Shown here: positions 3,126 through 55,497 of the stretch, piece after piece | Position numbering within the stretch: the stretch's first letter is position 1 | Layout: each line of letters opens with the position of its first letter | From: an uncultured Clostridia bacterium | Lineage (GTDB): Bacteria > Bacillota > Clostridia > TANB77 > CAG-508 | DNA length: 64,000 nucleotides | NCBI GenBank assembly: GCA_947630545.1 | Contig: CANRHX010000001.1 | Location: 20,499 to 84,498 of the forward strand | Reading direction: 5' to 3' | Notes under the pieces: model-generated | The model's database searches: none | What the model was told of the DNA's origin: nothing | What the model saw: the letters and a program-made list of their open reading frames with translations, nothing else | Made by a program: the position numbers and the translations under genes

Positions 3126-3135
3126 TTGTTACCTC

Positions 3136-5488: not shown

Positions 5489-5640
5489 AATTATGGCAAT
5501 ATTTTAGAATCTGAATTAACAAGTGTAAGAATGATTGTAGTATTAGAAGATAAATTATAAAAAATTAAAATCTCAGGCATTTACCTTAAAAGGTAAGTGC
5601 TTTTTTATTGTGAAACGAGAACCACCAGTTTTACTGGTGG

Positions 5641-7219: not shown

Positions 7220-7443
7220 TCTTTCTCCTTTCGTACCAAATAGGTTTTAATCGCGATTCTATTTAATAGATAAAAAAATATTTAAAATAGTTGCATTTTA
7301 TATATAAAATTAATATATAAAGTGATTGTAACACAAAAAAGTACTTTATGTAAAATATGCAAAACATAAAAAATACACTCCAAATATTAGACTTTTAATA
7401 TTTAAAGTGTATTTTTTAATTGTTCTATAAGATGTAAAAATGG

Positions 7444-8703: not shown

Positions 8704-8931
8704 ACTTTTACCACCTTTCATTTGTAACATTAAGTATTTGACTTAACGACTTTTCTATAACTCGTATTATATCAATATAATAGTCTTTTGACAATATTTT
8801 TTAGAAAAAATTTTACAAAAAATTTAAAAAATAAAATTAATGCAATTATTACGCAAAGTGAGTAAAATAAAAGCTTTTAGAGAATTTTATTTAAATTTAA
8901 ATTACCCTTAAGTCAAATACTTCACGACTTT

Positions 8932-9882: not shown

Positions 9883-9985
9883 CTGTTACATCGCCTTTCT
9901 ATTTTTGTTATAATAATATCAAATATTTGTAATTTTTCTAATTAGCATGCAAAAAATAAAAAATGCAAAAAAATTTTAAAAAAAA

Positions 9986-11736: not shown

Positions 11737-11829
11737 AGCCCTATAAATATTAAATTATAAAAATATGCACATAATAAAAAATTATGATATAATAAGCACA
11801 AATTAATAAATTAAGAGGAGGAAATTAAA

Positions 11830-12207
11830 ATGAGTAGAGAATTAAAAATTAAAAAATGTACTAAATGTGGAGCAATAGTAAAAGTATTGCAAGATTGTAA
11901 TTGCCCATGTGGAATTCAATGTTGTGGTGAAGAAATGAAAACATTAGAACCAAATTCAGTAGATGCAGCAGTTGAAAAGCATGTACCAACATATGAAGTA
12001 AGAGATGGAAAAATATTTGTAAAGGTAAATCATGTAATGGAAGAAGATCACTTCATAGAATGGATAAGTATAGTATTTGAAGATAAAGAAGTAACAACAT
12101 ATCTAAAACAAGGAGAAGAAGCTGTTGCTCATTGTAAATATGTACCAGGATCAACAATTTATTCATATTGCAATAAACATGGTTTATGGAAAACAGAAGT
12201 AAAATAA
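11830..12207 (+). CDS. dfx: desulfoferrodoxin (superoxide reductase)
   Basis: 125 aa. An N-terminal desulforedoxin Cys cluster (CTKCG...CNCPCG..CC) is followed by a neelaredoxin-type domain (H...HC). Confidence 0.85.
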   Translation: MSRELKIKKCTKCGAIVKVLQDCNCPCGIQCCGEEMKTLEPNSVDAAVEKHVPTYEVRDGKIFVKVNHVMEEDHFIEWISIVFEDKEVTTYLKQGEEAVAHCKYVPGSTIYSYCNKHGLWKTEVK

Positions 12208-21152: not shown

Positions 21153-21223
21153 TTTTGTGTCAACGGTTCCAGGTTTGGATGACACAAAATGTGTCAACGG
21201 TTCCGGGTTTGAATGACACAAAT
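21153..21223. repeat. REP-like palindromic tandem repeat, 2 units (GTGTCA-N17-TGACAC), orientation A
   Basis: gtgtcaacggttccaggtttggatgacac and gtgtcaacggttccgggtttgaatgacac. Confidence 0.85.
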
Positions 21224-21244
21224 TAGGAACTACCGGTACTAATC

Positions 21245-23368
21245 ATGAAAAATGGAGGTGAAAAATTGGCAAAAAAGGTAATCAATAAAAACAACATTAA
21301 TTTAAGATTTAATATAGCAACGATTATAACATATTTTGTTGGTATAATCCTAATTGTGCAATTATTCAACCTTCAAATAGTCCATGGAGAGGAATATAGA
21401 GAACAGTCGAATACACGTCTAACGCGTGAAACATCATTAGAGGCTGCAAGAGGTAAAATATTAGATAGAACAGGAAGTGTACTTGTTACATCAGAGACCA
21501 CATTTGGATTAGAATTATATAAAAGTAAAGTAGATTCAGAAACATTAAATAATTGCATGTTAGCTATAGTAAATACATTAACAAAATATAAAAAGTATGA
21601 GCCAGATTCATTTCCAATAGAAGTAAATCCATATAAATACACAATAAAAGGAGAAGAACTTACAAATTGGCAACAAGAAAATGGTATAACAGTTGGTAAA
21701 ACTCCTGAACAAGTTTTTAATGAATACAAAGAGAAATTTGAAGTTAAGAATACTAATCTTGAAGATGCAAGAAAAATAATAGGATTAAGATATGAAATAT
21801 CTAAAACAGGTTACAGTAGCACAAGAGCATATAGATTGGCAGACAATATATCACGTGAAGCAGTTGCTGAATTCAGTGAAAAAAGTGATCAATTTCCAGG
21901 TATAAATATAGTTGTAGAGCCCAAAAGACAATATACTTCAGGAACTGTTGCATCTCATATTCTAGGGTATGCAGGGAAAATAAATCAAACTGAATATGAA
22001 GAGAACAAAGATGAATATGACATTAATGACATAATAGGAAGAACAGGAATTGAATATGCATTTGAAGGATACCTGAAAGGTAAAAACGGAACAAGGCAAA
22101 TTGATATGGGGGTTGATGGAACATCATCTGGAGAATATGTAACCAAAGATGCTGTTGCAGGTTCAAACATAGTACTTACTATTGATGCAAATTTACAAAG
22201 AATTGTTGAAAAAGCTTTAGAGCAAAATATAAAGAAAATTGCAAGTGGAGGATTTGGAAAAAAATATGATGCAAAAGCAGGTAGTGCAGTTGTAATGAAC
22301 GTAAAAACAGGAGAAGTTCTTGCAATGGCAAGTTATCCAGACTATAATCCAGCCCTATTTGTTGATGGAATAAGTACCAAAGATTGGAACAATTACAATA
22401 ATAACAAAAATCATCCACTTGTCAACAAAGCAATGCAAGTATCATATTCACCAGGATCAACGTTCAAAATGGTTTCAGCAATTGCAGCATTAGAATCTGG
22501 AGTAGTAACAACTACAGAAAGAATTAATGATACAGGAGTATACAAACTTGGCAATAGAACTTGGAATTGTTGGTACTATACAGATTATCATGTTGGACAT
22601 GGAAGCCTTAACGTATCCGGTGCAATAAAAAATTCATGTAACTACTATTTTTACGAAGTAGGAAAAAGAATGGGAATAGATAAGCTAGTAAAATATGCTA
22701 AATACTTTGGTTTAGGAAGTAAAACAGGAATAGAACTTGGTGATGAAGCAAAAGGGGTATTAGCAAGCAAACAAGTAAAAGAGGCAAGAGGAGAAACATG
22801 GGTTGCAGGTGATACATTAAACTCAGTAATTGGACAAGGACTAAATGAATTTACTCCACTTCAAATGGCGAAATATATAAGTATTTTAGCAAATGGTGGA
22901 AAAAAAGTAGATGTATCAATAGTAAAATCAGTAATAAATGCAGATGGTACAGAAGTTCCAAGAGAAGAAATAGACAACTATATAAATAAAAGGTTGAACT
23001 TAACAGAAGAGGAAGATGATGGAACTACTATAAATAAAGATTATTTAAAAGTAATACTAAAAGGAATGCAGTCCGTAACACAAGAGGTAGGTGGAACTGC
23101 ATACAACATATTCAAAAACTTTAGCATAAAAGTTGGAGGAAAAACAGGTTCAGCAGAAGCGCCAGGAAACAAAGTAAACGCTTGGTTTGTTGGATTTGCA
23201 CCATTTGATGATCCAGAGATAGCAATAGTAGTTATGGTTGAAAATGGTGGACATGGAAATTATACAGCAGAGGTTGTAAGAGATATAATGGCAGAATACT
23301 TTGGAATGAATACACAAGATATAAAAGAAGACTTATCTGCTAAGGTTTATACTGAAATTTTACAATAA
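21245..23368 (+). CDS. mrdA: penicillin-binding protein 2 (elongasome transpeptidase)
   Basis: 707 aa with an N-terminal TM. It has the SXXK motif 'STFK', an 'SCN' motif, and 'KTGS'. It sits in the mreBCD-pbp-minC order. Confidence 0.85.
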   Translation: MKNGGEKLAKKVINKNNINLRFNIATIITYFVGIILIVQLFNLQIVHGEEYREQSNTRLTRETSLEAARGKILDRTGSVLVTSETTFGLELYKSKVDSETLNNCMLAIVNTLTKYKKYEPDSFPIEVNPYKYTIKGEELTNWQQENGITVGKTPEQVFNEYKEKFEVKNTNLEDARKIIGLRYEISKTGYSSTRAYRLADNISREAVAEFSEKSDQFPGINIVVEPKRQYTSGTVASHILGYAGKINQTEYEENKDEYDINDIIGRTGIEYAFEGYLKGKNGTRQIDMGVDGTSSGEYVTKDAVAGSNIVLTIDANLQRIVEKALEQNIKKIASGGFGKKYDAKAGSAVVMNVKTGEVLAMASYPDYNPALFVDGISTKDWNNYNNNKNHPLVNKAMQVSYSPGSTFKMVSAIAALESGVVTTTERINDTGVYKLGNRTWNCWYYTDYHVGHGSLNVSGAIKNSCNYYFYEVGKRMGIDKLVKYAKYFGLGSKTGIELGDEAKGVLASKQVKEARGETWVAGDTLNSVIGQGLNEFTPLQMAKYISILANGGKKVDVSIVKSVINADGTEVPREEIDNYINKRLNLTEEEDDGTTINKDYLKVILKGMQSVTQEVGGTAYNIFKNFSIKVGGKTGSAEAPGNKVNAWFVGFAPFDDPEIAIVVMVENGGHGNYTAEVVRDIMAEYFGMNTQDIKEDLSAKVYTEILQ

Positions 23369-23472
23369 AAATGTGTCACTCAAACCCGGAACCAATGACA
23401 CAAAATGTGTCACTCAAACCCGGAACCAATGGCACAAAATGTGTCAACCAAACCCGGAACCGATGACACAAA
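23367..23472. repeat. REP-like palindromic tandem repeat, 3 units, orientation B
   Basis: Three units of (aaaatgtgtcactcaaacccggaaccaatgacac), with no spacers. Confidence 0.85.
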
Positions 23473-23490
23473 AATGAAAGGATGTAGAAG

Positions 23491-24102
23491 ATGAAAAATT
23501 GCATAAGTATTAATTTAAAAAGGAATGAATTGATTATAAAAATTACTGAAGATGCAAGTTATGAAAATATAATAGAAAGCTTAAAAAAGAAATTACCAGA
23601 GTTAAAAAAGTTATATCAAGAAGATAAGACGCCAATAAGAGTTTCAGGGAAGATTCTAAAAAATAAAGAAATTGATGAACTTCAGAATATTATAAAAGAA
23701 AATATTGATGTTGACATTGAATTTGATACACCTAAAAGCCTAGGGCTAGCAAGCATAAAGAAAACCTTTGACCAAGAGATAGCTATTTCTGAAACGAAAT
23801 TTCATAGAGGATCTTTAAGGTCTGGACAAAAGATGGAAGTTGAAGGTAGTATTGTAATAATTGGAGATGTTAATTCAGGTGCAGAAATAATGGCATCAGA
23901 CAATATAGTTGTTTTAGGAAACTTAAGGGGATTGGCACATGCTGGGGCCAAAGGAAATAAACAAGCAATTATTGCTGCAGGGGTATTTGATTCAGTTCAA
24001 GTTAGAATAGCAAATATAGTAAGGGAAATAGATAGAGATGAAGAACCATTACACAAAAATTCATATTTATATATAGAAGATGATAAAATAGTAATTGAAT
24101 AA
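23491..24102 (+). CDS. minC: septum site-determining protein MinC
   Basis: 203 aa. The C-terminal beta-helix pattern is 'GSIVIIGDVNSGAEIMASDNIVVLGNLRGLAHAG'. Confidence 0.8.
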   Translation: MKNCISINLKRNELIIKITEDASYENIIESLKKKLPELKKLYQEDKTPIRVSGKILKNKEIDELQNIIKENIDVDIEFDTPKSLGLASIKKTFDQEIAISETKFHRGSLRSGQKMEVEGSIVIIGDVNSGAEIMASDNIVVLGNLRGLAHAGAKGNKQAIIAAGVFDSVQVRIANIVREIDRDEEPLHKNSYLYIEDDKIVIE

Positions 24103-24106
24103 TAAA

Positions 24107-24487
24107 TTAAGTAAGTAGAATTAATATTAAGCAAATAAAAAGCATTTCATCTTTTACTCCCTCAAGGTAAAGAGAAAGCAAGATGCACAGTATAAGTATA
24201 TCATCAGAATATAATTCTATACCTAAAATATTTATATAAGCTTGGCTATCAGATTTACAATTACGGTTATCATAATCCTTACTATCATCTAAAGTACTAC
24301 TAGAATCCATACTAGTAGTATTTTTTTTAACGTTTTCTTGTGAAGTATGTAAGTTTACATTATTTTGATTATATTTTGAATCAGTACTTATAGGCTTTCG
24401 ATTATAGTAATTTCTTGAATAATAATTCCTATAATATGGAAAATCAAAAAAAGGGTTATTATACATTTTATCATTCCTTTTTATCAT
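24107..24487 (-). CDS. hypothetical Tyr/Asn-rich protein
   Basis: 126 aa. Low-complexity YYxNYY repeats with a C-terminal hydrophobic stretch. Confidence 0.3.
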   Translation of the reverse strand: MIKRNDKMYNNPFFDFPYYRNYYSRNYYNRKPISTDSKYNQNNVNLHTSQENVKKNTTSMDSSSTLDDSKDYDNRNCKSDSQAYINILGIELYSDDILILCILLSLYLEGVKDEMLFICLILILLT

Positions 24488-24929
24488 TTTTTAATATATC
24501 TGCAATTTTTGAAAAATTAAGCAAATTCACATATTGATCTAATTTTTCTTGTTTTGATTGTCTTAAATAAGGCTTTAAAGAATAAAGCAAATTTGATCTA
24601 GGATCATTTTTATCATTCATTTTTTCCATAGCTGACTTCATTTTTAGAATAGTATCCATATCTATTTTACTAAAATCAAATCCAGAAGAACTAGAGTTAT
24701 ATGAATTTTGAGAGCTAGTAGTATTATTAGAGTTACTTGAATTATTTGAACTACTATTTTGTTTTTTTTCATTATATTGATTCTGGTTTTGAGAGTTAAT
24801 CATTTTGGAAAAATTTTCTATCATTTCGGGAGAAATTTGAGAAATTGCATCAGATATATTACCATTGTCCACCATATTTTTTATATTATTCATTATTTCT
24901 GGATTTATATTATTATCCACATAAACCAC
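24471..24929 (-). CDS. hypothetical Ser/Asn-rich protein
   Basis: 152 aa. A low-complexity SN-rich centre with conserved-looking termini. Confidence 0.3.
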   Translation of the reverse strand: MVYVDNNINPEIMNNIKNMVDNGNISDAISQISPEMIENFSKMINSQNQNQYNEKKQNSSSNNSSNSNNTTSSQNSYNSSSSGFDFSKIDMDTILKMKSAMEKMNDKNDPRSNLLYSLKPYLRQSKQEKLDQYVNLLNFSKIADILKNDKKE

Positions 24930-25079
24930 CTCTAATTTTAATATATTATTATAATTATATGTTTAACAATTAAAAAAGTACCAAATTGATAAAAAGTAGT
25001 CATATTAAATTATGATATAAGTATAATTTACAAAAAGGGAAGATTTTACATAAAAAGTTAATAAATTTCAATAAAATTG

Positions 25080-25108
25080 TTGAAAAATAAGTAAAAACGA
25101 TGTATAAT
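25080..25108 (+). promoter_or_regulatory. sigma-A-type promoter (TTGAAA-17-TATAAT) for the adhesin A-B operon
   Basis: TTGAAA at 25080-25085, a 17-nt spacer, TATAAT at 25103-25108. The leader to the ATG at 25297 is about 190 nt. Confidence 0.5.
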
Positions 25109-25296
25109 ATAAGATAGGTTGATATGTAAATATTGCTTTGTAATATAAATGTAATAAAAATTTAACGAAAAAGTAATATTTGCGTTAAAAATATTTCCGT
25201 AACTATATACAAAGTTAAAAAAATATACATATTGACTGTAAGAAAAATTATTATATATTATTATATTAAGGAATAAAATTTTAAGGAGGAAGAAAT

Positions 25297-28200
25297 ATGA
25301 AAGGGAAATTATTACAAAGATTAATTGCCGTGGTTTTAGTTTTATGTTTAACAGCAACTAATTTTATTTTTGTTGCTACAAGCACAGTATATGCTTTAAG
25401 CACAACAACTGAGTTAGAAGGAGGAAAAATCATATTTGAAGCATATTTTAAAAATGGCGATCAAAAAGTAACTGAAAAAACAGCAAATATATCAGAAGGA
25501 GATAAACTTTATTTAAATTTAGAATTAAAAGCAGGTAAACTCCAAGATGCAAAAATAAAAATAGACAATGCAAATTTCAAAATAATGGATGATAAAGTTA
25601 ATAATAAATTTATAAACAATATCAATACCAAAACAAATGAAATTGCATTAAATGAAATAAACTATAATGATAGTAAAAATGGAGTTATAGAAATAGAATT
25701 ACCAATTAAATTTGAAGAAGCAGAAAAAATACCTACTTCTTATTTTGCTAGGGAAAATAGTATAAACCTTTCAGGAAAATATAAAAATTCCTCTGAAAAT
25801 GCAAAAAATATACAAAGTGATACAATAAAAACAAAATTAACATGGGCACAACAAACAGATGGAATAAACTATAGTACAAAAATAGAGAAAGTAATTTATT
25901 TTGATAATAAAACATTAGTACAAGCAAACATCCAATCAACATACAAAGGAGCATATTTCCCAAAAGAAACAGAAACAGTAACAGTAAATCTTCCAAAAAT
26001 AGATAACATTACTCCAAGTTATACAGTTTTAGTAGATGGAAACAAACTAGATGTAAATCAAATAACAGATAGTATAGAGACACAAACAATGTCATTCACA
26101 AATAATTTTATAGATGATGAAAACATTACATGGAACAAATCTGGAAATTCATATAAAGTTATATATGTTTATGATGGAATAACAAAATTAGAAGACCCAC
26201 TACAAATACAACCAAAAATAGAAACAAAACTATTTAACAATGATAAAAAATTAACAGGAAGTCCAACATATAAATCAAATAAGCCACAAGGAACTATAGC
26301 AAGTGTTAGTGCAAAATCAACATCAGGAGATGTATATAAAGGTTATATGTATGCTAATTCAGAAGAAACAAGATATTCAGAAGAATATAACATGGAAATG
26401 TCTTATGTAGATGGAATTACATCAACATTTGAGTTAGCAGGAGATAAGTTCAAAACACAAGATGGTGAAGAAATTAGCACAAACAATCAAACCGAATATA
26501 AAGAAATAAGAATAAATAAAGAAAAACTAGTTAAAGTACTAGGAACAAAAGGTAGTTTAAAAATAATACCAGACAACAAGGAATTAAGTGAATTTGTAAT
26601 AAACTCAACCAGTTCAGCTGATGAAAATGGAAACATAGTAATAAACAATGATAGAATTAAAGGATCACACAATGTAACAATTCAAGTAACATCAGCAGAA
26701 AACCCAGGAACATTAACAATTTTAGCAACTAAAGCTATAAAAGGAAATGCTGGATATGAAAAAGACACATTAAAAACAATAAATGCAATAGAAACAACTA
26801 TAAAATCATATACAGATAATGTAGAAGGAACATCAACTGCGTCAGCAACAACAGGATTAAAAGAAACAGTAACACAAGCAACAATAACAATGAATAACAA
26901 CAATATACTTTCAACAACAAGTACAAACAACATTGAATTCATTGCAACTTTAAAAACAGGTACAATGGATACAGATTTACTAAAAGAGCCAACAGTAAAA
27001 ATCATATTGCCAGATGAAGTAACAAAAATTGAGTTAAGTTCAGTATCTGCTTTATATGCAGAAAAAGAATTAAAAATAGCAAGTGCACAAGTAGTTGATA
27101 ACAACAAAGCAATATTAGTAAAACTAGATGGTGAGCAATTCAAATATAACAATAAATTTATTGAAGGTATAAAAATTACTGTAAATGCACAAATAACATT
27201 AAATGATTCTGCAACATCAAGAGATACAAAAATTACAATGAAATATACAAACGAAAATAGTGCTAATAAAGAATATACAGCAACTACTGATGTATCAGTC
27301 CAAGCACCTTATGGAATTATTAAAAAAGCAGCTATTTCTGCATACTTTGAAACAGAAAACAATGGAACAGAAACATTAACAACTAGATTAATAAACAATT
27401 ATGGAAAATCAGTTGAAAACATAGCTATAATTGGAACAATGCCAAGCGTAAAATTATCTAAAAATGAATTTGAAAAAGGAATAAAAGACAGTTTCCAATC
27501 AAGCTTCTCTAGTGATAAAAATAAAAAGGCAAATATAGAAATAAAATATTCACAAGATGAAGAAAATTTCAATGATAGCTTTGAAAATGCAAAATTATAT
27601 AAAATAATATTAAAAGATAATAAATTAGAAAGTAAAGAAATGTTAGGAATAAAATTCACATTAAATATTTCTCAAATTTTACCAAACTTTAAACTTTCTT
27701 ATATATATGATAGTGATGAAAAGGTTGAAAATTTACAAATTAATGAAATGACATCAGGAACAAGCAAAAATGAAAATAAAAAACCAGAAACATCAGGAAA
27801 TACAGGAACAGAAGAACAATCAGGAGAAACAAGACCAACAAATCCAACAACACCAACAACTCCAAATGCTGAAAAAGATGAAAATCTAAGAGTAGGATTA
27901 AATATAAAATCAGGAAATACTGAATTAAAAGATGGAGATGAAATATTTGCAGGGCAAACAATAAGATATACCTATAAAATATTAAATAATACAGGAAAAG
28001 AAGTAAAAAATATAAAACTTGTAGTAAATCATGAAAATGCAAATATATTCGAAGAACAAACAGAGCAACAAACTAATACAGCAAGACCTGATGAAAAAAT
28101 AAATTTCACATATGAAGTAGAAACAGAAAAATCAAGCAAAGAGTACACTATAGGTACAATGAAAGATGGAGAAACAAAAACTATAACATATCAAGTAAGA

Positions 28201-30315: not shown

Positions 30316-33300
30316 AAATATTGCATTTTCATTAATTGCATTTATATTATTAATAAGTATATTAGTAAGTACAAATATTGCAAAATCAATTGATGATGCA
30401 GAAACAGTTAATGATGTTATTGATTGCACAAGAAATTCATCATGGTATGATTTTGACCCTAGTGATGTAGTTAACAAAAAAATAGTATCTGGAAGAGATA
30501 TAAGTTTTAGCAAAGCTGGAGGATATTGTGTTGACCCCCATCAAAGAGCATATAAAGGAACATACAAAGTTGTAAATGTAATAGATGTAAACAATAATAC
30601 TTCAGGAAATTCCATAAGAGTATATGGTATAAATAAAAATGGAAAAACAACAAATAAAGAATATTCATTCTCAAATGAAAATGTAAAACCAATACTAATG
30701 TTAGCTTATTTAGCAAAAAAAGGAAACAATGAAACTAGTGTATCTACTGATCCTGCAGTTTACATGAAAAATTCATATAAAGCAGCAATGCCAGGAGTAT
30801 TCTTAAAAGAAACTTATCTAAAACAAATGATTAAAGTAGGATTGTCAGATTATTTAATACCATCAACATATTCTGCATATGATGAAGGAGCATGGGAGAA
30901 ATTAGCAGAAGCTCAAAAAGAAGCGACAAAATTAGCTAAACAAGGAAGTAAAGAAACAGCTGCTATGAGTGATAAAACAGACAAAGATAATGTAAGCTCA
31001 TTTACATCAGATGATGGAAAATTCTTCATAGGACCATATAAATTAGGATTAACAGGAGAATGTAAAATTGGAGAAATAAAAATAAATGGTAGCATAGATG
31101 CTGTTGGAATATCAACAGATGGAAAAAGTGTAGAAGATTTTGACAAAGTAGTAGATGAAAAAGAATTTTACATAGTATTGGACAAAGAAATAGATGACAT
31201 AAAATCTATAAAAATTACAGCTAAAGAAAGTATTAGTTCAGTAAAAGCTAGATTATTAATGGTAAGTGGTGGACTTAGCCAAAACTTCTTCATATATAGG
31301 GCAGAAGATAAACCACAAAAACCATCAATCGATTTAGAAGTACCAAAATTTGGTAAACTTGAAATTAAGAAAACAGACCAATTTAAAGATGCTGATGTAA
31401 GTTTAAAAGATATAGGATTTGTGGTATGGAGCGAAAGTAAAAAAGCATATATAAATGTAAATAATGGAAAAATATCATACGTTGATTTCGAAACAGCTAA
31501 GAAAGACGAAAACGAATTTAAAACAGATAAAAACGGAGTAGTACCAACAATAGATAATTTACCACTTGGAAAATATAAAATATATGAAACATCTATACCA
31601 TCACAATTACAAGATTACTATGAATTAAAAGAAATAACATTACCAGACAAAAACGGAAAAGAAGTAAAAGCCAATGCAAAAGTAGTAACTATAAAAAATG
31701 ATGCTGGTAAAACTCAAAGTTATGTACAAGTAAAATCAGGTCAGACAGCAACAGTAACAGCTATAAATTATAGAGACTTTAACACATTAATTCTAAAAAA
31801 GATAGAAGAAGATACAGGAGTACCTTTAAATGGAATAGAATTTAAATTATATAGTTTAATAGAAGGAAAAAAAGGATGGGTTCAAGTAGATAGCGAAAAC
31901 AGAGTTACAGGAGTAACAGACGACTTCGAACAAGCATCTCCATTTGTAACAGTAAACAATGGCGTTACACCAAAAATTTATAGAGTTCCTTTAGGAAAAT
32001 ATGCTGTATATGAAACAGACCTAGGTGAATATGAAGATATATATCAAGAATTAGAGCCAATAAGAATGGAAGGTGGTAACACTGGAGGAAAGGGATTATT
32101 CAAAGGAAATATAACTGTTGAAGCAAATAAAGAAAATGAATTTAGTGTTACAGTAGACAATAAACAAGTTTATACTTCATTAATTCTTAAAAAGATTGAC
32201 GAAGATACAGGATTACCTTTAAGTGGAATAGAATTTAAATTATATAGTAAAGTAGAAGGAAAAATTGGATGGGTTCAAGTAGATAGCCAAAATAAAGTTA
32301 CAGGAGTAACAGGCAAATTTGAAGAGGGATCTAAATTTGTAACAGGAGCCGATGGACTTACACCAAAAATTACAAAAATTCCTTTAGGAGAATATGATGT
32401 ATATGAAACAGGTTTAGGCGAATATGAAGATATATATCAAGAATTAGAGCCAATAATAATTGACGGCAGTGATACTGGAGGAAAGGGATTATTCAAAGGA
32501 ACTATAACTGTTGAACCAAATGAAGAACATGAATTTACTGCGACAGCAAAAAATAAACAAGTTTATATAAGCATATCAGGAAATGTTTGGGAAGAAGTAG
32601 CAGTAGGAAAAGACCAAAAAACAACTAATGGTTTATTAGACAGTAATGATAACATGATAAATGGTATAGAAGTAAAATTAATGGATAAAACAACTAACCA
32701 AGCTATTCAAACAACCAAAACATCAAATGGCGGAAAATATAAATTTGAAAAAGTTAAGATAGAAGAATTAGAAAATTACTATATCGAATTTACATATGAT
32801 GGTGTAACATATCAGAGTGTAATAACACCAAATGCTGATTCTACAACGCAAATAACTGATGAAAATACATCAAAAGCATCAGAAACAGCTGAAGCAAGAA
32901 AAGAGTTAAATAATGCATTTACAGAGTTAACAGGTGAAGGACAAAAATTACATTACAAAAAAGACATTACATTAACATATAGTAAAGAAAAAGATGGAGA
33001 CAATACAGTAGTAACTTCAAATAACATATGTGACAGAAATAAAGGTATAAATGCATCACAAAGAATTGTAAACTTAAGCAAATTAGGAGATTTTACAATA
33101 GAAGGTGATACAACAAGCGATTATTTATCTAGCAAGTACAAAGAATTAAAAGCAAGTAACGAAAAAGAAATAATTAGAGAAATAAAAAATGTTAACTTAG
33201 GATTATATGTAAGAGAACAACCAAACTTAGCTTTAGTAAAAGATGTAAGTACAGCAAATGTTTCTATAAATGGAAAAACATATGTATATAGTTATGAAAA

Positions 33301-35533: not shown

Positions 35534-35548
35534 TATAACTTTTTGAAA

Positions 35549-35580
35549 AACAAGTAGATTTAAAAATCTACTTGTTTTTT
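35549..35580 (+). terminator. rho-independent terminator after adhesin gene B
   Basis: The stem acaagtagattt/aaatctacttgt has a 4-nt loop and is followed by TTTTTTT. Confidence 0.6.
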
Positions 35581-35581
35581 T

Positions 35582-35644
35582 GTGTCACTGGTTCCGGGTT
35601 TGGTTGACACATTTTGTGTCAAAGATTCCAGGTTTGGATTAGTC
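35582..35644. repeat. REP-like palindromic repeat, 2 units (second degenerate), orientation A
   Basis: gtgtcactggttccgggtttggttgacac and gtgtcaaagattccaggtttggattagtc. Confidence 0.75.
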
Positions 35645-35921
35645 ATATATTGCAAAAAGCTAGGGAAATAGCTAGTTTGCAATTTAATGAAAATATTTTT
35701 AATTGAAAAAAATTATATGATATGAAAATGTAATAAAAATTTAATTTAAGCACAGCAAAAAAACCCGAAAACTATTTCCGTAGTAGCTTTAGAGTTAATT
35801 CATGTAATATTAGAAGAATAGCTCAAATAAGCTTATTGACTAAAAAAAACAAAAATATTAATATAAAATTAAGTTGTAATGTGTAAAAAGCAACTTAACA
35901 ATAAACTTTAGGAGGCATGAA

Positions 35922-40823: not shown

Positions 40824-41178
40824 TGGAAATTCATATACATGGAAATGTCAAAACGAAGATATATGGGATAATGTGACCAACATTACAAAAACAGTTACAG
40901 AAGTTACAGGACCTTTTTACGTAGGACAAGCTTCAACAACAACAAGTGACGAATATAAATGGTATTTAGAGAAAGTTAACACAGATGCAGACGTAAAAAT
41001 AGTTGCTAAAAATGACAAATATATAATCGGACCTCTTGGAATACAAAATGTTGGAAAATATAAATGTGAAAATTTCTCTTTTGAAGTTATAGGTGATGGA
41101 GGAATAAGTGATACAGTTACAGAGGTTTGTAATGCAGATGGATCTAATCCACATCAAGATAATGGTCAATCACGGTAA
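40656..41178 (+). other. N-terminal region of adhesin gene D, split across three reading frames
   Basis: The signal-peptide-like segment 'IFGIVIILLILGINNSNA|YDYEEDFF...' is in the frame of gene C. The next part is in frame +1 (the 40873-41178 ORF, plus 33 upstream codons). The rest is in the frame of the main D ORF from about 41170. This implies two indels, or pseudogenisation of the N-terminus of D. Confidence 0.5.
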
Positions 41179-50646: not shown

Positions 50647-51876
50647 ATGGAACTAAAGACAAATTATCAATATACATATTTTATACATCCTTTCATAGTA
50701 AAGGAACAAAGATATTCAAAATATTTATTAAAAATGTTAAAAGATAAAAACTGTAAATTGAAAATATATAAAAAGGAAAAAGATTTAAATTTATATAAAT
50801 ATTTTCTACCAGAAATTAGAAATTTCTTATTTTCTAGTTTTGACTTTACAAGCAATAAATTAAAAAGTTTAGAAACTTTGCCATTAGACACTCAAGCAGC
50901 AATCTTAGCAAAGTATTCTTGTACTATGTTTGAGTATAATTTAGAGAAAGTTATACAAGGAAAAACCGATGAAGAAAAAGGAATATTTTTTGATATAAGT
51001 AAAATAGAGATAATTTGTTTTAATACAGGAATATGCTTTTTATGTATAAAAACAAATGTAGAAAATACAAATCTTTTTGATGATATTTTAAATTTTAATT
51101 ATAAATTTAGAGATATAAATCAAGAGTTTAAACCAAAACAATATGATAAAATAAAAATACAAACAGGAGCATTTTCAGATGTAAAAAAATTTACAGATTT
51201 AATAAAAGACATAACAGGTGCAAATTTTGATGCAGTAAGATATGACATAGATACAGAAAGATTTTTAACATATTCTTATGCTTGTGTGGAGCAAGATTAT
51301 TGGAATGAATATAGAAAATTCGAAAATATTGAACATTACTTTATAAAGTTTTCAAATATATTGCCTGCTGATGATTTTACTAATTTTGTGAAAGATGAAT
51401 CAGTTTCAATTTCAGAATGGAAATATGCCAAAATAGGATTAACAAAGCAAGGTGTCACACTATTCTCATCTGCAACAGAAATGAATAATTTTACTATTTT
51501 CCCTGAAGAATTTGAAACACAATATTTTTATACATATATATTAAACTTGTATAAAAAGATATATTTAAATAAGTTAAGTGTAGAGTTTAGTAATTCAAAA
51601 AATATTAAGAATACTAGAAAAAAATTTATAGAATTTACAAAAAATATATGGATACAAGAAATTACACAAGATGAGGCTGGAACTATAATAAATCGTAGAT
51701 TAAATGAGATTCTTGAGCTAGACGCATTGTATGCATATACAAAAAATAAATATGATATATTATATAAAGATTTAAATATAGAGAAAAATTCAAAGATAAC
51801 AGTTGCATTAGCAATTATACTATCAGTTGCTATAGCACTTAATGTAGTAAACTTTGTGCAATTATTAAATAAATAA
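50647..51876 (+). CDS. hypothetical protein with C-terminal TM anchor
   Basis: 409 aa. The single C-terminal TM is 'ITVALAIILSVAIALNVV'. No recognisable domain. Confidence 0.4.
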   Translation: MELKTNYQYTYFIHPFIVKEQRYSKYLLKMLKDKNCKLKIYKKEKDLNLYKYFLPEIRNFLFSSFDFTSNKLKSLETLPLDTQAAILAKYSCTMFEYNLEKVIQGKTDEEKGIFFDISKIEIICFNTGICFLCIKTNVENTNLFDDILNFNYKFRDINQEFKPKQYDKIKIQTGAFSDVKKFTDLIKDITGANFDAVRYDIDTERFLTYSYACVEQDYWNEYRKFENIEHYFIKFSNILPADDFTNFVKDESVSISEWKYAKIGLTKQGVTLFSSATEMNNFTIFPEEFETQYFYTYILNLYKKIYLNKLSVEFSNSKNIKNTRKKFIEFTKNIWIQEITQDEAGTIINRRLNEILELDALYAYTKNKYDILYKDLNIEKNSKITVALAIILSVAIALNVVNFVQLLNK

Positions 51877-51881
51877 AATCT

Positions 51882-52100
51882 GTGTCAATGGTTCCGTGTG
51901 TCATTGGTTCCGGGTTTGCGTGACACACATTATATTAATTTTGAAATACTTGGTGTCGCAACTTCCAAAATAAAAAACTAGTTTGTAAGTTGCTCCAATT
52001 CGCACTCGTTGCACTCGTTTGATCGCTTACGCGTATTTCAAAATTAATATAATGTGTGTCACGCAAACCCGGAACCAATGACACACGGAACCATTGACAC
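51882..52100. repeat. composite 218-bp palindrome: 68-bp perfect inverted arms (REP-like units) around an 83-bp unique core
   Basis: The left arm 51882-51949 is the exact reverse complement of the right arm 52033-52100. The core 51950-52032 is GC-richer and has its own sub-palindromes (gcaactt/aagttgc) and a direct repeat (gcactcg twice). Confidence 0.8.
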
Positions 52101-52131
52101 AACATTTTAATTTATGGAAAGGAATATTTAT

Positions 52132-52599
52132 ATGAATATAGCATGTGGCACAGACATAATTGAAATTTCACGAATCAAAGATGCAATTATATCTGATGCA
52201 GGTGAAAAATTTTTAGAACGAATATATACTAAAAAAGAAATAGAATATTGTGAAAGCAAGAAAGAACAAAAATATCAACATTATGCAGCTAGATTTGCTG
52301 CCAAAGAAGCAATATTCAAAGCCATTTCTGGAAGACTAAAAAATAAATTTAATATAGAATGGAAACAAATAGAAATACAAAATGAAGAAACTGGCAGGCC
52401 ATATGTCACAATTCATAATGAAGTTTCTAACCAAATAGAACAAATTGACTTAAGCATGTCACATTGCAAAGAATATGCAACGGCAAATGTTATAGTAAAT
52501 TTTGTGTGTCAATCAAACCCGGAACCAATGACACAAAATGTGCCACCCAAACCCGGAACCAATGACACAAAATGTGTCAATCAAACCCGGAACCGATGA
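52132..52599 (+). CDS. acpS: holo-[acyl-carrier-protein] synthase (C-terminus extended into the repeat array)
   Basis: 'MNIACGTDIIEISRIK' is the AcpS signature. The conserved body ends at about 52500. The last 33 codons are a translation of the REP-like repeats. Confidence 0.7.
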   Translation: MNIACGTDIIEISRIKDAIISDAGEKFLERIYTKKEIEYCESKKEQKYQHYAARFAAKEAIFKAISGRLKNKFNIEWKQIEIQNEETGRPYVTIHNEVSNQIEQIDLSMSHCKEYATANVIVNFVCQSNPEPMTQNVPPKPGTNDTKCVNQTRNR

Positions 52600-52605
52600 C
52601 ACAAA
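52504..52605. repeat. REP-like palindromic tandem repeat, 3 units, orientation B
   Basis: Three units, including gtgtcaatcaaacccggaaccaatgacac, lie between acpS and tatD. Confidence 0.85.
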
Positions 52606-52606
52606 T

Positions 52607-53398
52607 GTGGAGTTTTTTGATTCACATTCACATTTAAATGATGAAAAGTTTGATGAGGATAGAATTGATCTAATAAATCAATTTAAAAAAGAGAATATAA
52701 CTAGGTTTATAACTAATGGATATAGTTTAGATAGTTCAAAAAAAGCAATAGAAATTGCAAAGAGCTGCGATTTTACATATGCAACAGTTGGGATTTCACC
52801 AAATGATATTCCACAAAATGAAGATGAATTGTGGAAACAACTTGAGGAGATTAAAGAATTAGCTAAAGATAAAAAAGTGGTTGCAATTGGTGAAATAGGC
52901 TTAGACTATTATTGGAATAAGGATAATAAAAATTTACAACTGGAAGTATTTAATAAACAAATCGAAATTGCTAATGAGTTAAATTTACCTATAGTAATTC
53001 ATACAAGAGATGCAGTTATGGATACTTTACAGATTTTAAAAGATAATCCTGTTAATAATAAAGGGGTATTTCATTGTTGCCCATTAAATAGAGAACTAGT
53101 AAAAGAAGCTTTAAAGCTTAACTTTTATATTTCTTTTTCAGGGGTGGTTACTTTTAAAAATTCAAAAAATGCAGATGAAATTATTAATATGGTACCAAAC
53201 GATAGATTCCTCATCGAAACTGATAGCCCATATTTAGCTCCAGAGCCTGTTCGTGGAACAAGAAACACACCAATTAATGTTAAATTTGTCGCTGATAAAG
53301 TTGCTAGTGCTAAAGGGATTTCAATTGAACAGGTTGCAAAGTTTAGTTATGATAATGCCAACAGATTATTTAAAAATAATATTCATAAAAATTTTTAG
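52607..53398 (+). CDS. tatD: TatD-family metal-dependent hydrolase/DNase
   Basis: The start 'FDSHSHL' is reached from a GTG at 52607. Also present are 'AIGEIGLDYYW' and 'IVIHTRDA'. The track ORF starts inside the repeats. Confidence 0.75.
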   Translation: MEFFDSHSHLNDEKFDEDRIDLINQFKKENITRFITNGYSLDSSKKAIEIAKSCDFTYATVGISPNDIPQNEDELWKQLEEIKELAKDKKVVAIGEIGLDYYWNKDNKNLQLEVFNKQIEIANELNLPIVIHTRDAVMDTLQILKDNPVNNKGVFHCCPLNRELVKEALKLNFYISFSGVVTFKNSKNADEIINMVPNDRFLIETDSPYLAPEPVRGTRNTPINVKFVADKVASAKGISIEQVAKFSYDNANRLFKNNIHKNF

Positions 53399-53574
53399 CA
53401 ATCATATAATATAATAAGACATATAGTTTTATTAAGAAATGCGAAAGTGGTAACATAACAACAATTTGGACAAATCTTACGGAAACAAAGGATTCAGAAA
53501 ATATTGGAAAATTTGACAAATTTGGAAAAATATAGTATACTATAGATGTTGCCAAAAGGAGGTAATAATTTATT

Positions 53575-54570
53575 ATGAAAAAGAAAAGCCAAGAAAAAGC
53601 TTCCCTTTCAATAATGAAAATAATATGCATAAGTATAATGTTAATACTTATATCTGGTATAGGTGTTATGGCAGTAAATGCACAACTAAATGATGTAAAA
53701 ATAATACTTAAAAATGGATATGAAATGACGGCATTAACATCAAAAACAAAAGTATCTGAAATATTAGAAGAAAACAATATAATACTTGAAGAAGATGAAA
53801 AAACGGTTCCAGGTTTAGACGAAGAAATTGAACCAGGAGCAACGATAGAAATAAAAAATAAATCTGAAAAAGAAATTCAAATAGCTAAAATATCTGAATC
53901 TGGTGTGCAAACATCATTAGATGATTTACTAAAAAATTATGAACCAATAACAGAAAAAATAGTTGTTGAAAAAGTTAAAATACCATTTGAAACAATTACA
54001 AAACAAGCAACAGGTGCAGGTAAAGAAAAAAGAACAGAAGTTATTCAACAAGGGAAAGATGGATTAAAAGAAATAACATATAAAATTAAATATCAAAATA
54101 AAGTAGAAATTTCAAAAACAAAATTATCTGAAAAAGTAGTTAAAAAGCCAGTAAACAAGATAGTTCAAGTTCAAAAAATAACATCTAGATCTTTAACTAC
54201 TTCAAGAAGTACAGCAGTGTCTTATGGCGGAGGAAAATGGAGTTACTCAGCAAGCGATATGGACTTGTTATGTGCCATAACTGCACAAGAATGTAGTTCA
54301 AGCTATTCAGGAGCTTTAGCTGTTATTACAACAGCTTGCAACAGAGCAACAAAAAGAGGAACAGATCCATTAACAGAATATAAAAGACCAGGTCAATTCT
54401 GTTATACAATAGATAGTAATTGGAGAAGAAGATTGAATGGAAATTATTCATCATCTGTAAAAAAAGCAGTAACAGATGCCTTAAATGGTGCAAGAAATCA
54501 CAATTATTATTCATTTAGAGCTGCTGGAACACATTCAGGTACATTAATAGGTGGAAATGTATATTTTTAA
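53575..54570 (+). CDS. cell-wall hydrolase with G5-type middle region and C-terminal SleB-like (Hydrolase_2) domain
   Basis: A signal/TM is followed by a DUF348/G5-like region ('KEKRTEVIQQGKDGLKEITYKIKYQN'). The C-terminal 'LLCAITAQECSSSYSGALAVITTACNRA...PGQFCY' resembles the SleB cortex-lytic family. Confidence 0.55.
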   Translation: MKKKSQEKASLSIMKIICISIMLILISGIGVMAVNAQLNDVKIILKNGYEMTALTSKTKVSEILEENNIILEEDEKTVPGLDEEIEPGATIEIKNKSEKEIQIAKISESGVQTSLDDLLKNYEPITEKIVVEKVKIPFETITKQATGAGKEKRTEVIQQGKDGLKEITYKIKYQNKVEISKTKLSEKVVKKPVNKIVQVQKITSRSLTTSRSTAVSYGGGKWSYSASDMDLLCAITAQECSSSYSGALAVITTACNRATKRGTDPLTEYKRPGQFCYTIDSNWRRRLNGNYSSSVKKAVTDALNGARNHNYYSFRAAGTHSGTLIGGNVYF

Positions 54571-54636
54571 AAATAACAAAAGCATATTCTCTAAAATTGA
54601 GAAATATGCTTTTATTATTAAATTAAGGAGAAATTT

Positions 54637-55392
54637 ATGGAATTAATATCATGGAATGTAAATGGAATAAGAGCATGTGTAAATAAAGGATTTAAGGAAT
54701 TTTTTGAAGAAAAAAATGCAGACATATTTTGTTTGCAAGAAACAAAATGCCAACAAGGTCAAATTGAATTAGAATTTGATGGATATTATAGTTTTTGGAA
54801 TAGTGCAGAGAAAAAGGGCTATTCTGGCACAGCCATATTTACGAAAAAAAAGCCACTTTCAGTAAATTATGGGATTGGTATAGAAGAACATGACCATGAA
54901 GGAAGAGTAATTACTTTAGAATTTGAAAAATTTTATATGGTAAATATATATACTCCAAACTCAAAAAGAGAACTAGAAAGACTGGACTATAGATGTAAGT
55001 GGGAAGATGAAATTAGAAAATATTTGTTAAACTTAAATAGAATAAAACCTGTAATTATGTGTGGAGATTTAAATGTTGCTCACAAAGAAATAGACTTAAA
55101 AAATCCGAAAACTAATAGACACAATGCAGGATTTACAGATGAAGAAAGACAAAAAATGACTCAACTTTTAGAAGCAGGATTTATAGATAGTTTTAGGTTT
55201 TTATATCCAGATAAACCTGATCAATATAGTTGGTGGTCTTACATGGGAAGAGCTAGAGAAAAAAATATTGGGTGGAGAATTGATTACTTTATAGTTTCAA
55301 ATAATATTAAAGAAAATATCAAAGACGCATATATATTTCCAGAAGTTATGGGAAGCGATCATTGCCCTGTAGGATTAAATATAGATTTATAA
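54637..55392 (+). CDS. exoA: exodeoxyribonuclease III
   Basis: 251 aa. 'MELISWNVNGIRA', 'CLQETK' and the C-terminal 'GSDHCPV' are present. This is the ExoIII/Xth family. Confidence 0.85.
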   Translation: MELISWNVNGIRACVNKGFKEFFEEKNADIFCLQETKCQQGQIELEFDGYYSFWNSAEKKGYSGTAIFTKKKPLSVNYGIGIEEHDHEGRVITLEFEKFYMVNIYTPNSKRELERLDYRCKWEDEIRKYLLNLNRIKPVIMCGDLNVAHKEIDLKNPKTNRHNAGFTDEERQKMTQLLEAGFIDSFRFLYPDKPDQYSWWSYMGRAREKNIGWRIDYFIVSNNIKENIKDAYIFPEVMGSDHCPVGLNIDL

Positions 55393-55497
55393 AGTGTGTC
55401 ACTCAAACCCGGAACCGATGACACAAAGTGTGTCACTCAAACCCGGAACCGATGACACAAAATGTGTCATTAAAACCCGGAACCAATGACACAAAAA
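55391..55497. repeat. REP-like palindromic tandem repeat, 3 units, orientation B
   Basis: gtgtcactcaaacccggaaccgatgacac occurs twice, followed by gtgtcattaaaacccggaaccaatgacac. Confidence 0.85.

What the first reader, a model, noticed from the sequence alone, without database searches (positions are those of the whole stretch)
21153..55497. Species-specific family of 34-bp palindromic tandem repeats (GTGTCA-N17-TGACAC) at seven intergenic loci
Arrays of 2-3 spacer-less units (consensus about aaaatGTGTCAntcAAACCCGGAACCnaTGACAC) occur after mreD, after pbp2, after adhesin B, after adhesin D, after the 50647 gene, between acpS and tatD, and after exoA. They are found in both orientations. They usually sit right after terminators, or between convergent or tandem genes. 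The layout is REP/BIME-like: hairpin-forming units and no spacers, so they are not CRISPR. They could be substrates of a REP-associated tyrosine transposase, or protein-binding or terminator-boosting elements. Seven loci in 64 kb implies hundreds of copies per genome.
Basis: seen in the sequence. Interest (0 to 1): 0.6.

Follow-up and report, generated by a model that had tools for sequence, protein, structure and literature searches.

The report
REP-like hairpin repeats in gut Clostridia
The 34-bp repeats are real and are a lineage-specific version of a small palindromic repeat family that, in related uncultured gut Clostridia, flanks a single-copy REP-type tyrosine transposase gene, so they are most likely non-autonomous mobile hairpins of the REP/REPIN kind, in a bacterial group and with a layout not yet described for such elements.

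Summary
There are 16 units of GTGTCA-N3-AAACCCGGAACC-N2-TGACAC, one decayed unit and two half-units at seven loci (0 expected by chance), with a 34-bp period and no spacers.

The exact version is absent from 185,579 species genomes, JGI metagenomes and IMG/VR. The same 12-nt core, with compensatorily changed stems (ATTGCCA, GTTGCCA, CGGTCA), is abundant in related gut and rumen Clostridia.

In all 10 species examined, such units flank a ~250-aa Y1/HUH transposase in inverted orientation. Its best sequence and fold match is E. coli TnpA-REP (4ER8). The gene always sits in rplI-dnaB-RAYT-tilS, and the downstream units lie in frame inside tilS. Arrays differ between strains by whole units and by 3' half-units. 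Orientation relative to genes is unbiased, and the single hairpin is weak (-4.7 kcal/mol).

Best reading: REP/REPIN-type elements serviced by a domesticated RAYT. They differ from classical REPs in having no GTAG foot, a conserved 17-nt loop, head-to-tail arrays and an HTH-bearing transposase.

The cognate gene of this genome is not in the window and was not found.

One locus (51881-52101) is a perfect 221-bp palindrome. It encloses an unexplained ~85-nt module that is conserved across the clade.

The parts
21153..21223 (-). Array of 2 units (21157-21185, 21191-21219) between the mreD stop codon and the pbp2 RBS.
   Evidence: The site is empty in the two closest relatives, L005 and L006. The array is identical in ERZ27249603 and ERZ27249329.
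23368..23473 (+). Array of 3 units (23373, 23407, 23441) between the pbp2 stop codon and the minC RBS.
   Evidence: The site is empty in L005 and L006. In L009, L011 and L016 the same spacer holds an inverted doublet of GTTGCCA-type units.
35578..35644 (-). One intact unit (35582-35610) plus one decayed unit (35616-35644), directly after the terminator hairpin of the second adhesin gene.
47045..47115 (-). Array of 2 units (47049, 47083) directly after the terminator hairpin of the fourth adhesin gene. The last unit overlaps the listed ATG (47105) of the thymidylate-kinase-like ORF.
51881..51949 (-). Left arm of the 221-bp palindrome: half-unit 51881-51896, unit 51897-51927 and an AT-rich inner arm.
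   Evidence: 69-nt arms, 100% complementary; -94 kcal/mol, z = -21.8.
51950..52032 (+). Asymmetric ~85-nt centre module, conserved across the clade: TTGGTGTCGCAAC..hairpin..GTTGCTCCAATTCGCACTCG..TCGTTTGATCGCTTAC. Its function is unknown.
   Evidence: 44 full-length regex copies; 56 nhmmer hits including truncated ones, and copies in L027, L079 and L041 without REP units; the hairpin covaries. No Rfam family matches.
52033..52101 (+). Right arm of the palindrome: AT-rich inner arm, unit 52055-52085 and half-unit 52086-52101.
52502..52606 (+). Array of 3 units (52506, 52540, 52574). It forms the last 31 codons and the stop codon of the acpS ORF and ends at the tatD start codon.
55392..55496 (+). 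Array of 3 units (55396, 55430, 55464) between the exoA stop codon and the RBS of the AI-2E transporter gene.
   Evidence: The array is identical in ERZ27249337 and ERZ27249603.

Best explanation
The units are REP-type elements: short, non-autonomous, hairpin-forming repeats that belong to a clade-wide family in uncultured low-GC gut and rumen Clostridia.

Each unit has a 7-bp stem enclosing a 17-nt loop. The loop carries the near-invariant core AAACCCGGAACC, and an A-rich 5-nt linker follows the unit.

In related species the same units flank, in inverted orientation (- upstream, + downstream), a single vertically inherited Y1/HUH transposase of the RAYT (TnpA-REP) kind. This protein carries a C-terminal helix-turn-helix extension. 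Its gene always lies between dnaB and tilS.

Inferred mechanism: the enzyme recognises the unit as a single-stranded DNA hairpin, reading the conserved loop and the lineage-specific stem. It nicks and rejoins the DNA. This seeds new copies in short intergenic spacers and extends existing copies at their 3' end, which produces head-to-tail arrays, 3' half-units and inverted doublets (REPIN-like palindromes).

What is shown: the family relationship, the stem covariation, the REPtron arrangement in relatives, strain-level copy-number change, and the lack of orientation bias.

What is inferred: that this genome has its own cognate RAYT, that the enzyme acts on these units, the position of the nick, and any benefit to the host.
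For: 1. The units are highly non-random and form one family.

2. The exact GTGTCA version is absent from GTDB species genomes, JGI metagenomes and IMG/VR. Relaxing only the stem gives more than 120 metagenome stretches, with 320 units in 146 clusters.

3. Three of the 7 stem pairs change on both sides between lineages while the core stays fixed. 99.3% of cells are paired, against 21-50% when the partner is slid. Across species there are four stem types.

4. L141:3358-4107 encodes a 249-aa protein that matches Y1_Tnp (49.7 bits; cut-off 23). Its best NCBIfam match is REP_Tyr_transpos (67 bits, against 17 for IS200). It is flanked by '--' and '++' units.

5. Nine further orthologues all sit in rplI-dnaB-RAYT-tilS. 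Each has a - unit upstream and + units in frame inside tilS.

6. The HUH histidines and the catalytic Tyr (YIHNNPVKA) are invariant in 40 homologues. The best PDB sequence hit of the profile is 4ER8, TnpA-REP (E = 9e-4). The AlphaFold model (pLDDT 86) has 4ER8 as its best fold match (E = 2.5e-7, TMt 0.70), ahead of the IS608 and ISDra2 transposases.

7. Mixed clusters are ordered '-+' in 64 cases against 4 for '+-'. This is the same polarity as around the RAYT gene.

8. One locus in one species carries 1, 2, 2+half or 2 units each followed by a 3' partial in different samples. Half-units are always 3' halves abutting the 3' end of a unit, in at least 7 lineages.

9. Sites filled in the window are empty in the two closest relatives.

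10. Short-read contigs end inside the arrays.
Against: - No Y1 transposase gene is present in the 64-kb window. Nine RAYT look-ups did not turn up one flanked by GTGTCA-type units, so the link for this genome rests on homology of the repeats.
- The units lack the GTAG or CGTC foot that defines classical REPs (PMC3733652).
- The transposase scores below the NCBIfam RAYT cut-off (67 against 80).
- Published surveys found REP/REPIN association only for RAYT groups 2 and 3, and none for the HTH-bearing subclass 2.1 (PMC5581495, PMC6006769, doi 10.1101/2021.07.10.451892).
- No 0-versus-1 insertion polymorphism and no target-site signature were seen. Transposition, as opposed to local expansion, is therefore not demonstrated.
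- The unit hairpin is weak (-4.7 kcal/mol as ssDNA, z = -1.8).
Confidence: 0.8

Rival explanations
1. The units are RNA-level elements, either intrinsic terminators or 3'-end stabilisers. Each would fold in the transcript and stop transcription or block exonucleases.
For: In the - orientation each unit is a hairpin followed by TTTT. Two - arrays sit right behind canonical terminators (35582, 47049). Classical REPs are reported to stabilise mRNA and to terminate transcription (PMC6006769, background section).
Against: - The stem is only 7 bp with a 17-nt loop (-4.7 kcal/mol).
- Between co-directional genes there are 12 '+' arrays, 18 '-' arrays and 20 mixed clusters, so orientation is not biased.
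- The + arrays lie inside apparent operons, immediately before the next RBS.
- Units are tolerated in frame inside tilS in 10 species and in the acpS 3' end.
- This reading does not explain the covariation with a transposase locus.
Confidence: 0.1
2. The units are arrays of binding sites on double-stranded DNA for a dimeric protein, such as a regulator or nucleoid-associated protein, that recognises TGTGTCA-N17-TGACACA.
For: The palindromic half-sites are maintained by compensatory change. That pattern fits a co-evolving dimeric binder as well as it fits a hairpin. The associated transposase has an HTH domain.
Against: - The invariant part is the asymmetric centre, not the half-sites.
- The sites lie after stop codons of unrelated genes and inside ORFs.
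- Copy number varies between strains.
- 3' half-units are frequent.
- Unit periods of 27, 33 and 34 bp in different species do not keep helical phasing.
Confidence: 0.07
3. The units are remnants or MITEs of an ordinary DDE-type insertion sequence, or plain slippage satellites, and are unrelated to the Y1 transposase.
For: No target-site data were obtained. Tandem arrays can grow by slippage alone.
Against: - The units are self-complementary and only 29 bp long.
- No IS with such ends was seen in 2.5 Mb of related loci.
- The only gene consistently bracketed by inverted units is the Y1 transposase, in 10 of 10 species.
- Slippage cannot disperse one sequence to many loci.
Confidence: 0.03

Closest known systems
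E. coli REP/BIME elements with TnpA-REP (RAYT), i.e. the REPtron (PDB 4ER8; Nunvar 2010 and Ton-Hoang 2012 from my own knowledge; reviewed in PMC6006769)
   Same: - Both are short palindromic units found mostly after genes, as singletons, inverted pairs and clusters.
- The transposase gene is single-copy and bracketed by inverted units.
- The protein has the HUH and Tyr motifs, and its best sequence and fold match is 4ER8.
- BIME-1 also has a conserved asymmetric motif between two inverted REPs, as in the 51881-52101 composite.
   Different: - There is no GTAG foot.
- The conserved sequence is a 12-nt block in a 17-nt loop, rather than in the stem or foot.
- Head-to-tail spacer-less arrays predominate.
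- The transposase is ~250 aa with a C-terminal HTH extension.
- The host is a Clostridia lineage, not Proteobacteria.
REPIN-RAYT systems of Pseudomonas and Enterobacteria (Bertels and Rainey; PMC3116915, PMC5581495)
   Same: - Inverted doublets form long hairpins.
- The RAYT is single-copy, vertically inherited and in fixed synteny.
- Each lineage has its own repeat sequence variant.
- Repeat populations differ between sister species.
   Different: - Those papers state that only RAYT groups 2 and 3 carry REPINs.
- Here, doublets either abut or enclose a conserved 85-nt module.
- Tandem direct arrays and 3' half-units are common.
TIRYT/TIRtron elements (Di Nocera 2013, PMC3733652), equivalent to TnpA-Y1 subclass 2.1 (Quentin 2018, PMC6006769)
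   Same: - The Y1 transposase is longer than RAYTs and has a C-terminal HTH-like domain.
- It is flanked by inverted repeats that lack GTAG.
- Some TIR families are self-complementary and moderately repeated.
   Different: - The GGGGWSAS motif of TIRs is absent from the AAACCCGGAACC core. Only the alternative core found in L218, L026 and L070 (GGGGACGG) resembles it.
- Quentin et al. found no REP-like sequences near subclass 2.1 genes.
- Assignment to the subclass was not tested against their reference sequences.
IS200/IS605 ends (IS608, ISDra2)
   Same: A Y1/HUH enzyme recognises subterminal hairpins in single-stranded DNA. Fold matches rank second after 4ER8.
   Different: Those elements are autonomous and multi-copy, with different left and right hairpins and cleavage sites outside the hairpin. 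Here the gene is single-copy in fixed synteny, and the units are dispersed on their own.

Membership tests
REP / REPIN-RAYT (REPtron) systems | Short (20-40 bp) palindromic units, repeated many times and mainly extragenic | tested here: met
   There are 16 units at 7 loci in 64 kb, 320 units in related metagenome loci and one 3'-ORF overlap. The genome-wide count could not be made.
REP / REPIN-RAYT (REPtron) systems | Units occur as singletons, inverted doublets forming long hairpins, and clusters | tested here: met
   See for the cluster patterns, for the window palindrome and for the doublets in L009, L011 and L016.
REP / REPIN-RAYT (REPtron) systems | A cognate Y1/HUH transposase gene bracketed by the same units in inverted orientation | tested here: met
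   This is met in 10 of 10 related species.
REP / REPIN-RAYT (REPtron) systems | A conserved GTAG (or CGTC) tetranucleotide at the foot of the hairpin | tested here: not met
   In the alignment of 22 units the flanks are A/T-rich linkers, and the invariant block is in the loop.
REP / REPIN-RAYT (REPtron) systems | The transposase is of RAYT type rather than IS200 type | tested here: inconclusive
   NCBIfam REP_Tyr_transpos scores 67 bits, below the cut-off of 80 but far above IS200 at 17 bits. The best profile hit in PDB is 4ER8. The best fold hit is also 4ER8.
REP / REPIN-RAYT (REPtron) systems | A single-copy, vertically inherited gene, with a repeat sequence that differs by lineage | tested here: met
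   Synteny is rplI-dnaB-RAYT-tilS in all 10 species. Stem types are ATTGCCA, GTTGCCA, CGGTCA and GTGTCA, and there is a second core type.
TIRYT / TnpA-Y1 subclass 2.1 | A C-terminal helix-turn-helix extension on the Y1 core | tested here: met
   The proteins are ~250 aa. Several members give weak HTH_11, HTH_23 and HTH_28 hits, and residues 181-246 of the model are helical. The phylogenetic assignment was not tested.
TIRYT / TnpA-Y1 subclass 2.1 | Flanking inverted repeats carrying GGGGWSAS | tested here: not met
   The core AAACCCGGAACC has no such motif. Only the variant core in L218, L026 and L070 (GGGGACGG/T) comes near it.
CRISPR array | Repeats separated by unique spacers of similar length, with cas genes nearby | tested here: not met
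   Units abut with a 5-nt linker. No cas domains were found in the window ORFs.
Intrinsic terminators | A stable GC-rich stem with a short loop and a U-tract, oriented with transcription | tested here: not met
   The hairpin is -4.7 kcal/mol with a 17-nt loop. There is no orientation bias. The scanner finds none at the arrays.
DDE-type MITE | Terminal inverted repeats matching an IS, plus target-site duplications | tested here: inconclusive
   No empty-versus-filled pair at high identity was available. Strain differences were unit-number changes only.

The most novel reading that the evidence does not exclude
This would be a third kind of REP-RAYT partnership. It has been maintained vertically across a whole clade of uncultured gut Clostridia. 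An HTH-bearing Y1 enzyme fixed next to dnaB recognises hairpins through a conserved loop, and may nick within it, as rolling-circle Rep proteins do. One copy of the repeat has been kept in frame inside tilS throughout the clade. The inverted doublets carry a separate ~85-nt module (51950-52032) conserved in sequence and structure, which is not in Rfam. That module would be a new structured RNA or single-stranded DNA element with its own function.
Probability: 0.2. Interest if true: 0.7.

Novelty: new variant of a known kind. Interest (0 to 1): 0.55.

Why it matters
REP/REPIN-RAYT systems are the best example of long-lived, vertically inherited 'replicators' inside bacterial genomes. They are described almost only from Proteobacteria. 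The literature held here states that only RAYT groups 2 and 3 have such repeat populations (PMC5581495; doi 10.1101/2021.07.10.451892), and that the HTH-bearing subclass has none (PMC6006769).

A dense, lineage-tracking repeat family tied to an HTH-bearing RAYT in gut Clostridia would extend the phenomenon to another phylum. It would also add a different recognition architecture: a conserved loop and a covarying stem.

There are practical consequences as well. These repeats break short-read assemblies of these MAG-only organisms. They also alter proteins, through the AcpS tail and the TilS insert.

Tried and rejected
- Exact-pattern scans of GTDB genomes, JGI metagenomes and IMG/VR found nothing. 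The single IMG/VR hit to the relaxed pattern (L205) lies in GC-rich sequence (context) and looks like a chance match.
- Rfam has no family for the units or for the centre module. The only hits were sub-threshold microRNA models, which match any long hairpin.
It then found no candidates, which cost one protein search.
- The hunt for this organism's own RAYT used nine look-ups, chosen by similarity, source and stem type. They gave ATTGCCA, GTTGCCA and CGGTCA types but never GTGTCA. A second homologue search seeded with P0017 found no close relative.
- The shared 'AAAAATGAAAGGAT' after two arrays is the native RBS of the next gene, not part of the element.
- The 409-aa ORF before the palindrome has no Pfam match. 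By reading, its sequence ends in a hydrophobic, membrane-helix-like segment and shows nothing transposase-like.
- Scans of viral contigs for the centre module gave only chance-level hits, including a 51-bp coding repeat.
- The orientation of the centre module relative to genes is only weakly biased (10 sense, 3 antisense).
- phmmer of one RAYT against PDB found nothing. A profile was needed.

Full report
OBSERVATION

The pattern GTGTCA-N15-19-TGACAC occurs 14 times in the window, against 0.01 expected from dinucleotide shuffles. When the core is specified and one mismatch is allowed there are 16 units. Tandem Repeats Finder gives a 34-bp period.

The unit reads (a)TGTGTCA-nnn-AAACCCGGAACC-nn-TGACACA followed by an A-rich linker. 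The 12-nt core and 4 of the 7 stem pairs are invariant.

The loci are 21157 (2 units, -), 23373 (3, +), 35582 (1, -, plus a decayed unit at 35616), 47049 (2, -), 51898(-)/52056(+), 52506 (3, +) and 55396 (3, +).

The 51.9-kb locus is a 221-bp palindrome with 69-nt arms that are 100% complementary. Each arm is a half-unit plus a unit plus an AT-rich stretch, and the arms enclose an 83-nt asymmetric centre. The 52.5-kb array supplies the last 31 codons and the stop codon of acpS, and ends at the tatD start.

The arrays are identical in three independent metagenome assemblies. Short contigs stop inside them.

WHERE IT OCCURS

The window is about 28% GC. Its PBP2 is 81-82% identical to two MAGs, one labelled 'uncultured Clostridium sp.' and the other a water-buffalo rumen Clostridia bacterium. 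It is 56-68% identical to about 80 other uncultured gut Clostridia of the 'Clostridium sp. CAG...' kind.

The exact repeat is absent from one genome of each of 185,579 species, from the JGI metagenomes and from IMG/VR.

In the two closest relatives the mreD|pbp2 and pbp2|minC spacers are empty. The window arrays sit exactly between a stop codon and the next gene's ribosome-binding site.

In three more distant relatives (L009, L011, L016) the pbp2|minC spacer holds an inverted doublet of units with the same core but the stem GTTGCCA/TGGCAAC. These also carry outer half-units like those of the window palindrome. Three stem pairs are changed on both sides. Pairing is 99.3%, against 21-50% when the partner column is slid.

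Relaxing only the stem in the search pattern returned more than 120 metagenome stretches, mostly human gut. They hold 320 units, dominated by ATTGCCA/TGGCAAT with a 33-bp period.

A covariance model found still more distant versions with another core, GGGGACG-type, in L026, L070 and L041.

LINK TO A TRANSPOSASE

In L141 two - units and two + units bracket a 249-aa ORF. It matches Pfam Y1_Tnp (49.7 bits), and its best NCBIfam model is the REP-associated tyrosine transposase (67 bits, below the 80-bit cut-off, against 17 bits for IS200).

This protein has 676 homologues at E<1e-5. Many are on ~1-kb contigs.

I looked up nine more orthologues. In all ten species the gene lies in rplI-dnaB-RAYT-tilS(-ftsH). 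There are - unit(s) between dnaB and the gene, and + unit(s) lying in frame inside tilS, after the SGGPDS motif.

The flanking units have the stem type that is dispersed elsewhere on the same contigs: ATTGCCA, GTTGCCA, or CGGTCA(A) with a 27-bp period. One species (L218) has the alternative core.

The HUH histidines and the Tyr of YIHNNPVKA are invariant in 40 homologues. A profile of them hits E. coli TnpA-REP (4ER8) best in the PDB (E = 9e-4; IS200-type enzymes score E>0.5). The AlphaFold model (pLDDT 86) has 4ER8 as its top fold match (E = 2.5e-7, TM 0.70 over the target), ahead of the IS608 and ISDra2 transposases.

The C-terminal ~100 residues are helical and give weak HTH matches.

No such gene lies in the window, and none of the orthologues I could fetch has GTGTCA flanks. 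For this genome, therefore, the link is by homology of the repeats.

BEHAVIOUR OF THE REPEATS

Mixed clusters are ordered '-+' 64 times and '+-' 4 times. This is the polarity seen around the RAYT gene.

At one locus of the ATTGCCA species, different samples carry 1 unit, 2 units, 2 plus a half-unit, or 2 units each followed by a 3' partial. Other loci differ by one 33-bp unit.

Partial units are always the 3' half ((CGG)AACC-nn-stem), joined to the 3' end of a complete unit. This is seen in at least seven lineages, including the window. No 5' halves were seen. The asymmetry suggests growth by re-copying from a break within the core, and it is the basis for my inference that the loop holds the nick site.

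Orientation relative to co-directional flanking genes is unbiased: 12 '+' arrays, 18 '-' arrays and 20 mixed clusters.

A single unit is a weak hairpin (-4.7 kcal/mol as ssDNA). In arrays, the junction TGACACA-AAA-TGTGTCA offers an alternative and tighter hairpin (and by reading the sequence).

These points argue against a primary role as terminators or operators. They fit a DNA-level mobile or maintained element.

COMPARISON WITH KNOWN SYSTEMS

The arrangement meets most defining features of REP/REPIN-RAYT systems: short palindromes in many copies, inverted doublets, a single-copy Y1 gene bracketed by them, vertical inheritance, and lineage-specific repeat variants.

It fails one feature, because there is no GTAG or CGTC foot (PMC3733652).

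The enzyme resembles the HTH-bearing TnpA-Y1 subclass 2.1, or 'TIRYT'. For that subclass Quentin et al. found no REP-like sequences (PMC6006769). Bertels et al. state that only RAYT groups 2 and 3 are associated with REPINs, and that group 1 occurs in Clostridia among others (PMC5581495; doi 10.1101/2021.07.10.451892).

I found no paper containing the core sequence in a relevant context, and none linking RAYTs to repeat families in Clostridia.

I therefore file it as a new variant of a known kind. Subclass assignment was not tested against reference sets.

THE CENTRE MODULE

The asymmetric centre of the window palindrome (51950-52032) is not junk spacer. The same ~85-nt sequence occurs in 44 full-length copies (31 distinct) at many loci of the ATTGCCA species, in either orientation between inverted units. 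Its form is TTGGTGTCGCAACC-hairpin-GGTTGCTCCAATTCGCACTCG...TCGTTTGGTCGCTTAC.

It also occurs, without REP units but inside long species-specific inverted repeats, in L027 (in the mreD|pbp2 spacer), L079 and L041.

Its hairpin covaries. The stem enclosing it covaries as well. It has no Rfam match and no match in viral contigs beyond chance.

It is sense to co-directional neighbours 10 times out of 13, which is not decisive.

The nearest analogy is the protein-binding central motif of E. coli BIME-1 (from my own knowledge). It could equally be a small RNA or a cis-acting site for the HTH domain. It remains unexplained.

VERDICT

The elements are best explained as REP/REPIN-type repeats of a clade-wide RAYT system in uncultured gut Clostridia, of which the GTGTCA version is specific to this lineage. 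The mechanism (hairpin recognition, nicking, 3' extension) is inferred. The cognate gene of this genome remains to be shown.

Noticed in passing
window 47901-48497 (+): There is a full-length OLE (ornate large extremophilic) RNA here (Rfam RF01071, 363 bits, E = 5e-103). It is followed directly by a 185-aa membrane-protein ORF (48489-49046; weak CNNM hit) in the position expected for oapA. A 2-unit REP array lies about 800 bp upstream.
   Followed up: partly
window 51950-52032 (+); also L027:9864-9952, L079:11550-11629, L041:9019-9090: This is a conserved ~85-nt asymmetric module that always sits at the tip of a long inverted repeat. It is multi-copy in related species, has a covarying hairpin and a direct repeat GCACTCGT x2, and ends in TCGCTTAC. 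It is not in Rfam. Whether it is an RNA, a protein-binding site or a cis-acting site is unknown.
   Followed up: partly
L141:3153-3212, L206:10978, L214:10885-10950, L216:3942-4005, L218:10930-10990, L223:3880-3945, L231:1790-1870, L232:8772-8830: In every related species examined, one to two REP units (plus partial units) are embedded in frame in tilS, between the SGGPDS PP-loop and the AHVNH motif. They add about 9-25 residues (for example CQLNPEPVAINCQTNPEPMAI). This is an intragenic repeat kept across a clade.
   Followed up: partly
window 52114-52599 (+): The AcpS ORF is 161 aa. Its last 31 residues (CQSNPEPMTQNVPPKPGTNDTKCVNQTRNR) are the translation of the 3-unit array through all three frames. 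The stop codon is the TGA of the third unit, 5 nt before the tatD ATG.
   Followed up: partly
window 1-9900: This appears to be an integrated mobile element: TnpV (746-1099, -), an HD-domain protein, a sigma-70-like factor (6677-7219, -) and a tyrosine integrase (8932-9882, -). It contains no REP units. GC skew changes sign near 10 kb and again near 60 kb.
   Followed up: no
window 25297-46963 (+): Four consecutive giant surface-protein genes (1672, 1748, 1633 and 1951 aa) carry SpaA/SdrD_B/DUF11 domains. One has an internal 393-bp tandem duplication (31785-32567), and others have 9/27-bp and 18/54-bp coding repeats.
   Followed up: no
upstream of the RAYT start in L141, L206, L210, L214, L216, L220, L223, L231, L232: A conserved pair of G-boxes (AGGGGCTATTTATATAA-n-TAGGGGAA) lies about 30-70 nt before the RAYT start codon in most species. 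It may be an operator, promoter or leader element.
   Followed up: no
L210:11383-11412 and 11552-12052 (same in L211:14363): A second, shorter Y1_Tnp gene (166 aa) lies a few kb from the RAYT, downstream of ftsH and dnaJ. It is preceded by a different palindrome (AGTCGCATTGGGGCGTTTGCCCATGCGACT). This may be a second transposase and repeat pair in the same genome.
   Followed up: no
L218:9835, 10958, 14824, 14857, 20278; L026:6301/6383; L070:2964: Some species keep the ATTGCCA or TGTGCCA stem but have a different loop core (AAAGGTCCGTCCCC / GGGGACG...). This core resembles the GGGGWSAS motif reported for TIRYT-flanking repeats. The loop, therefore, also evolves between lineages.
   Followed up: partly
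L029:1-80: A contig starts with four tandem 3' half-units (CC(C)TGGAACCAATGCCAAC, period 18-19). This shows that half-units can themselves be reiterated.
   Followed up: no
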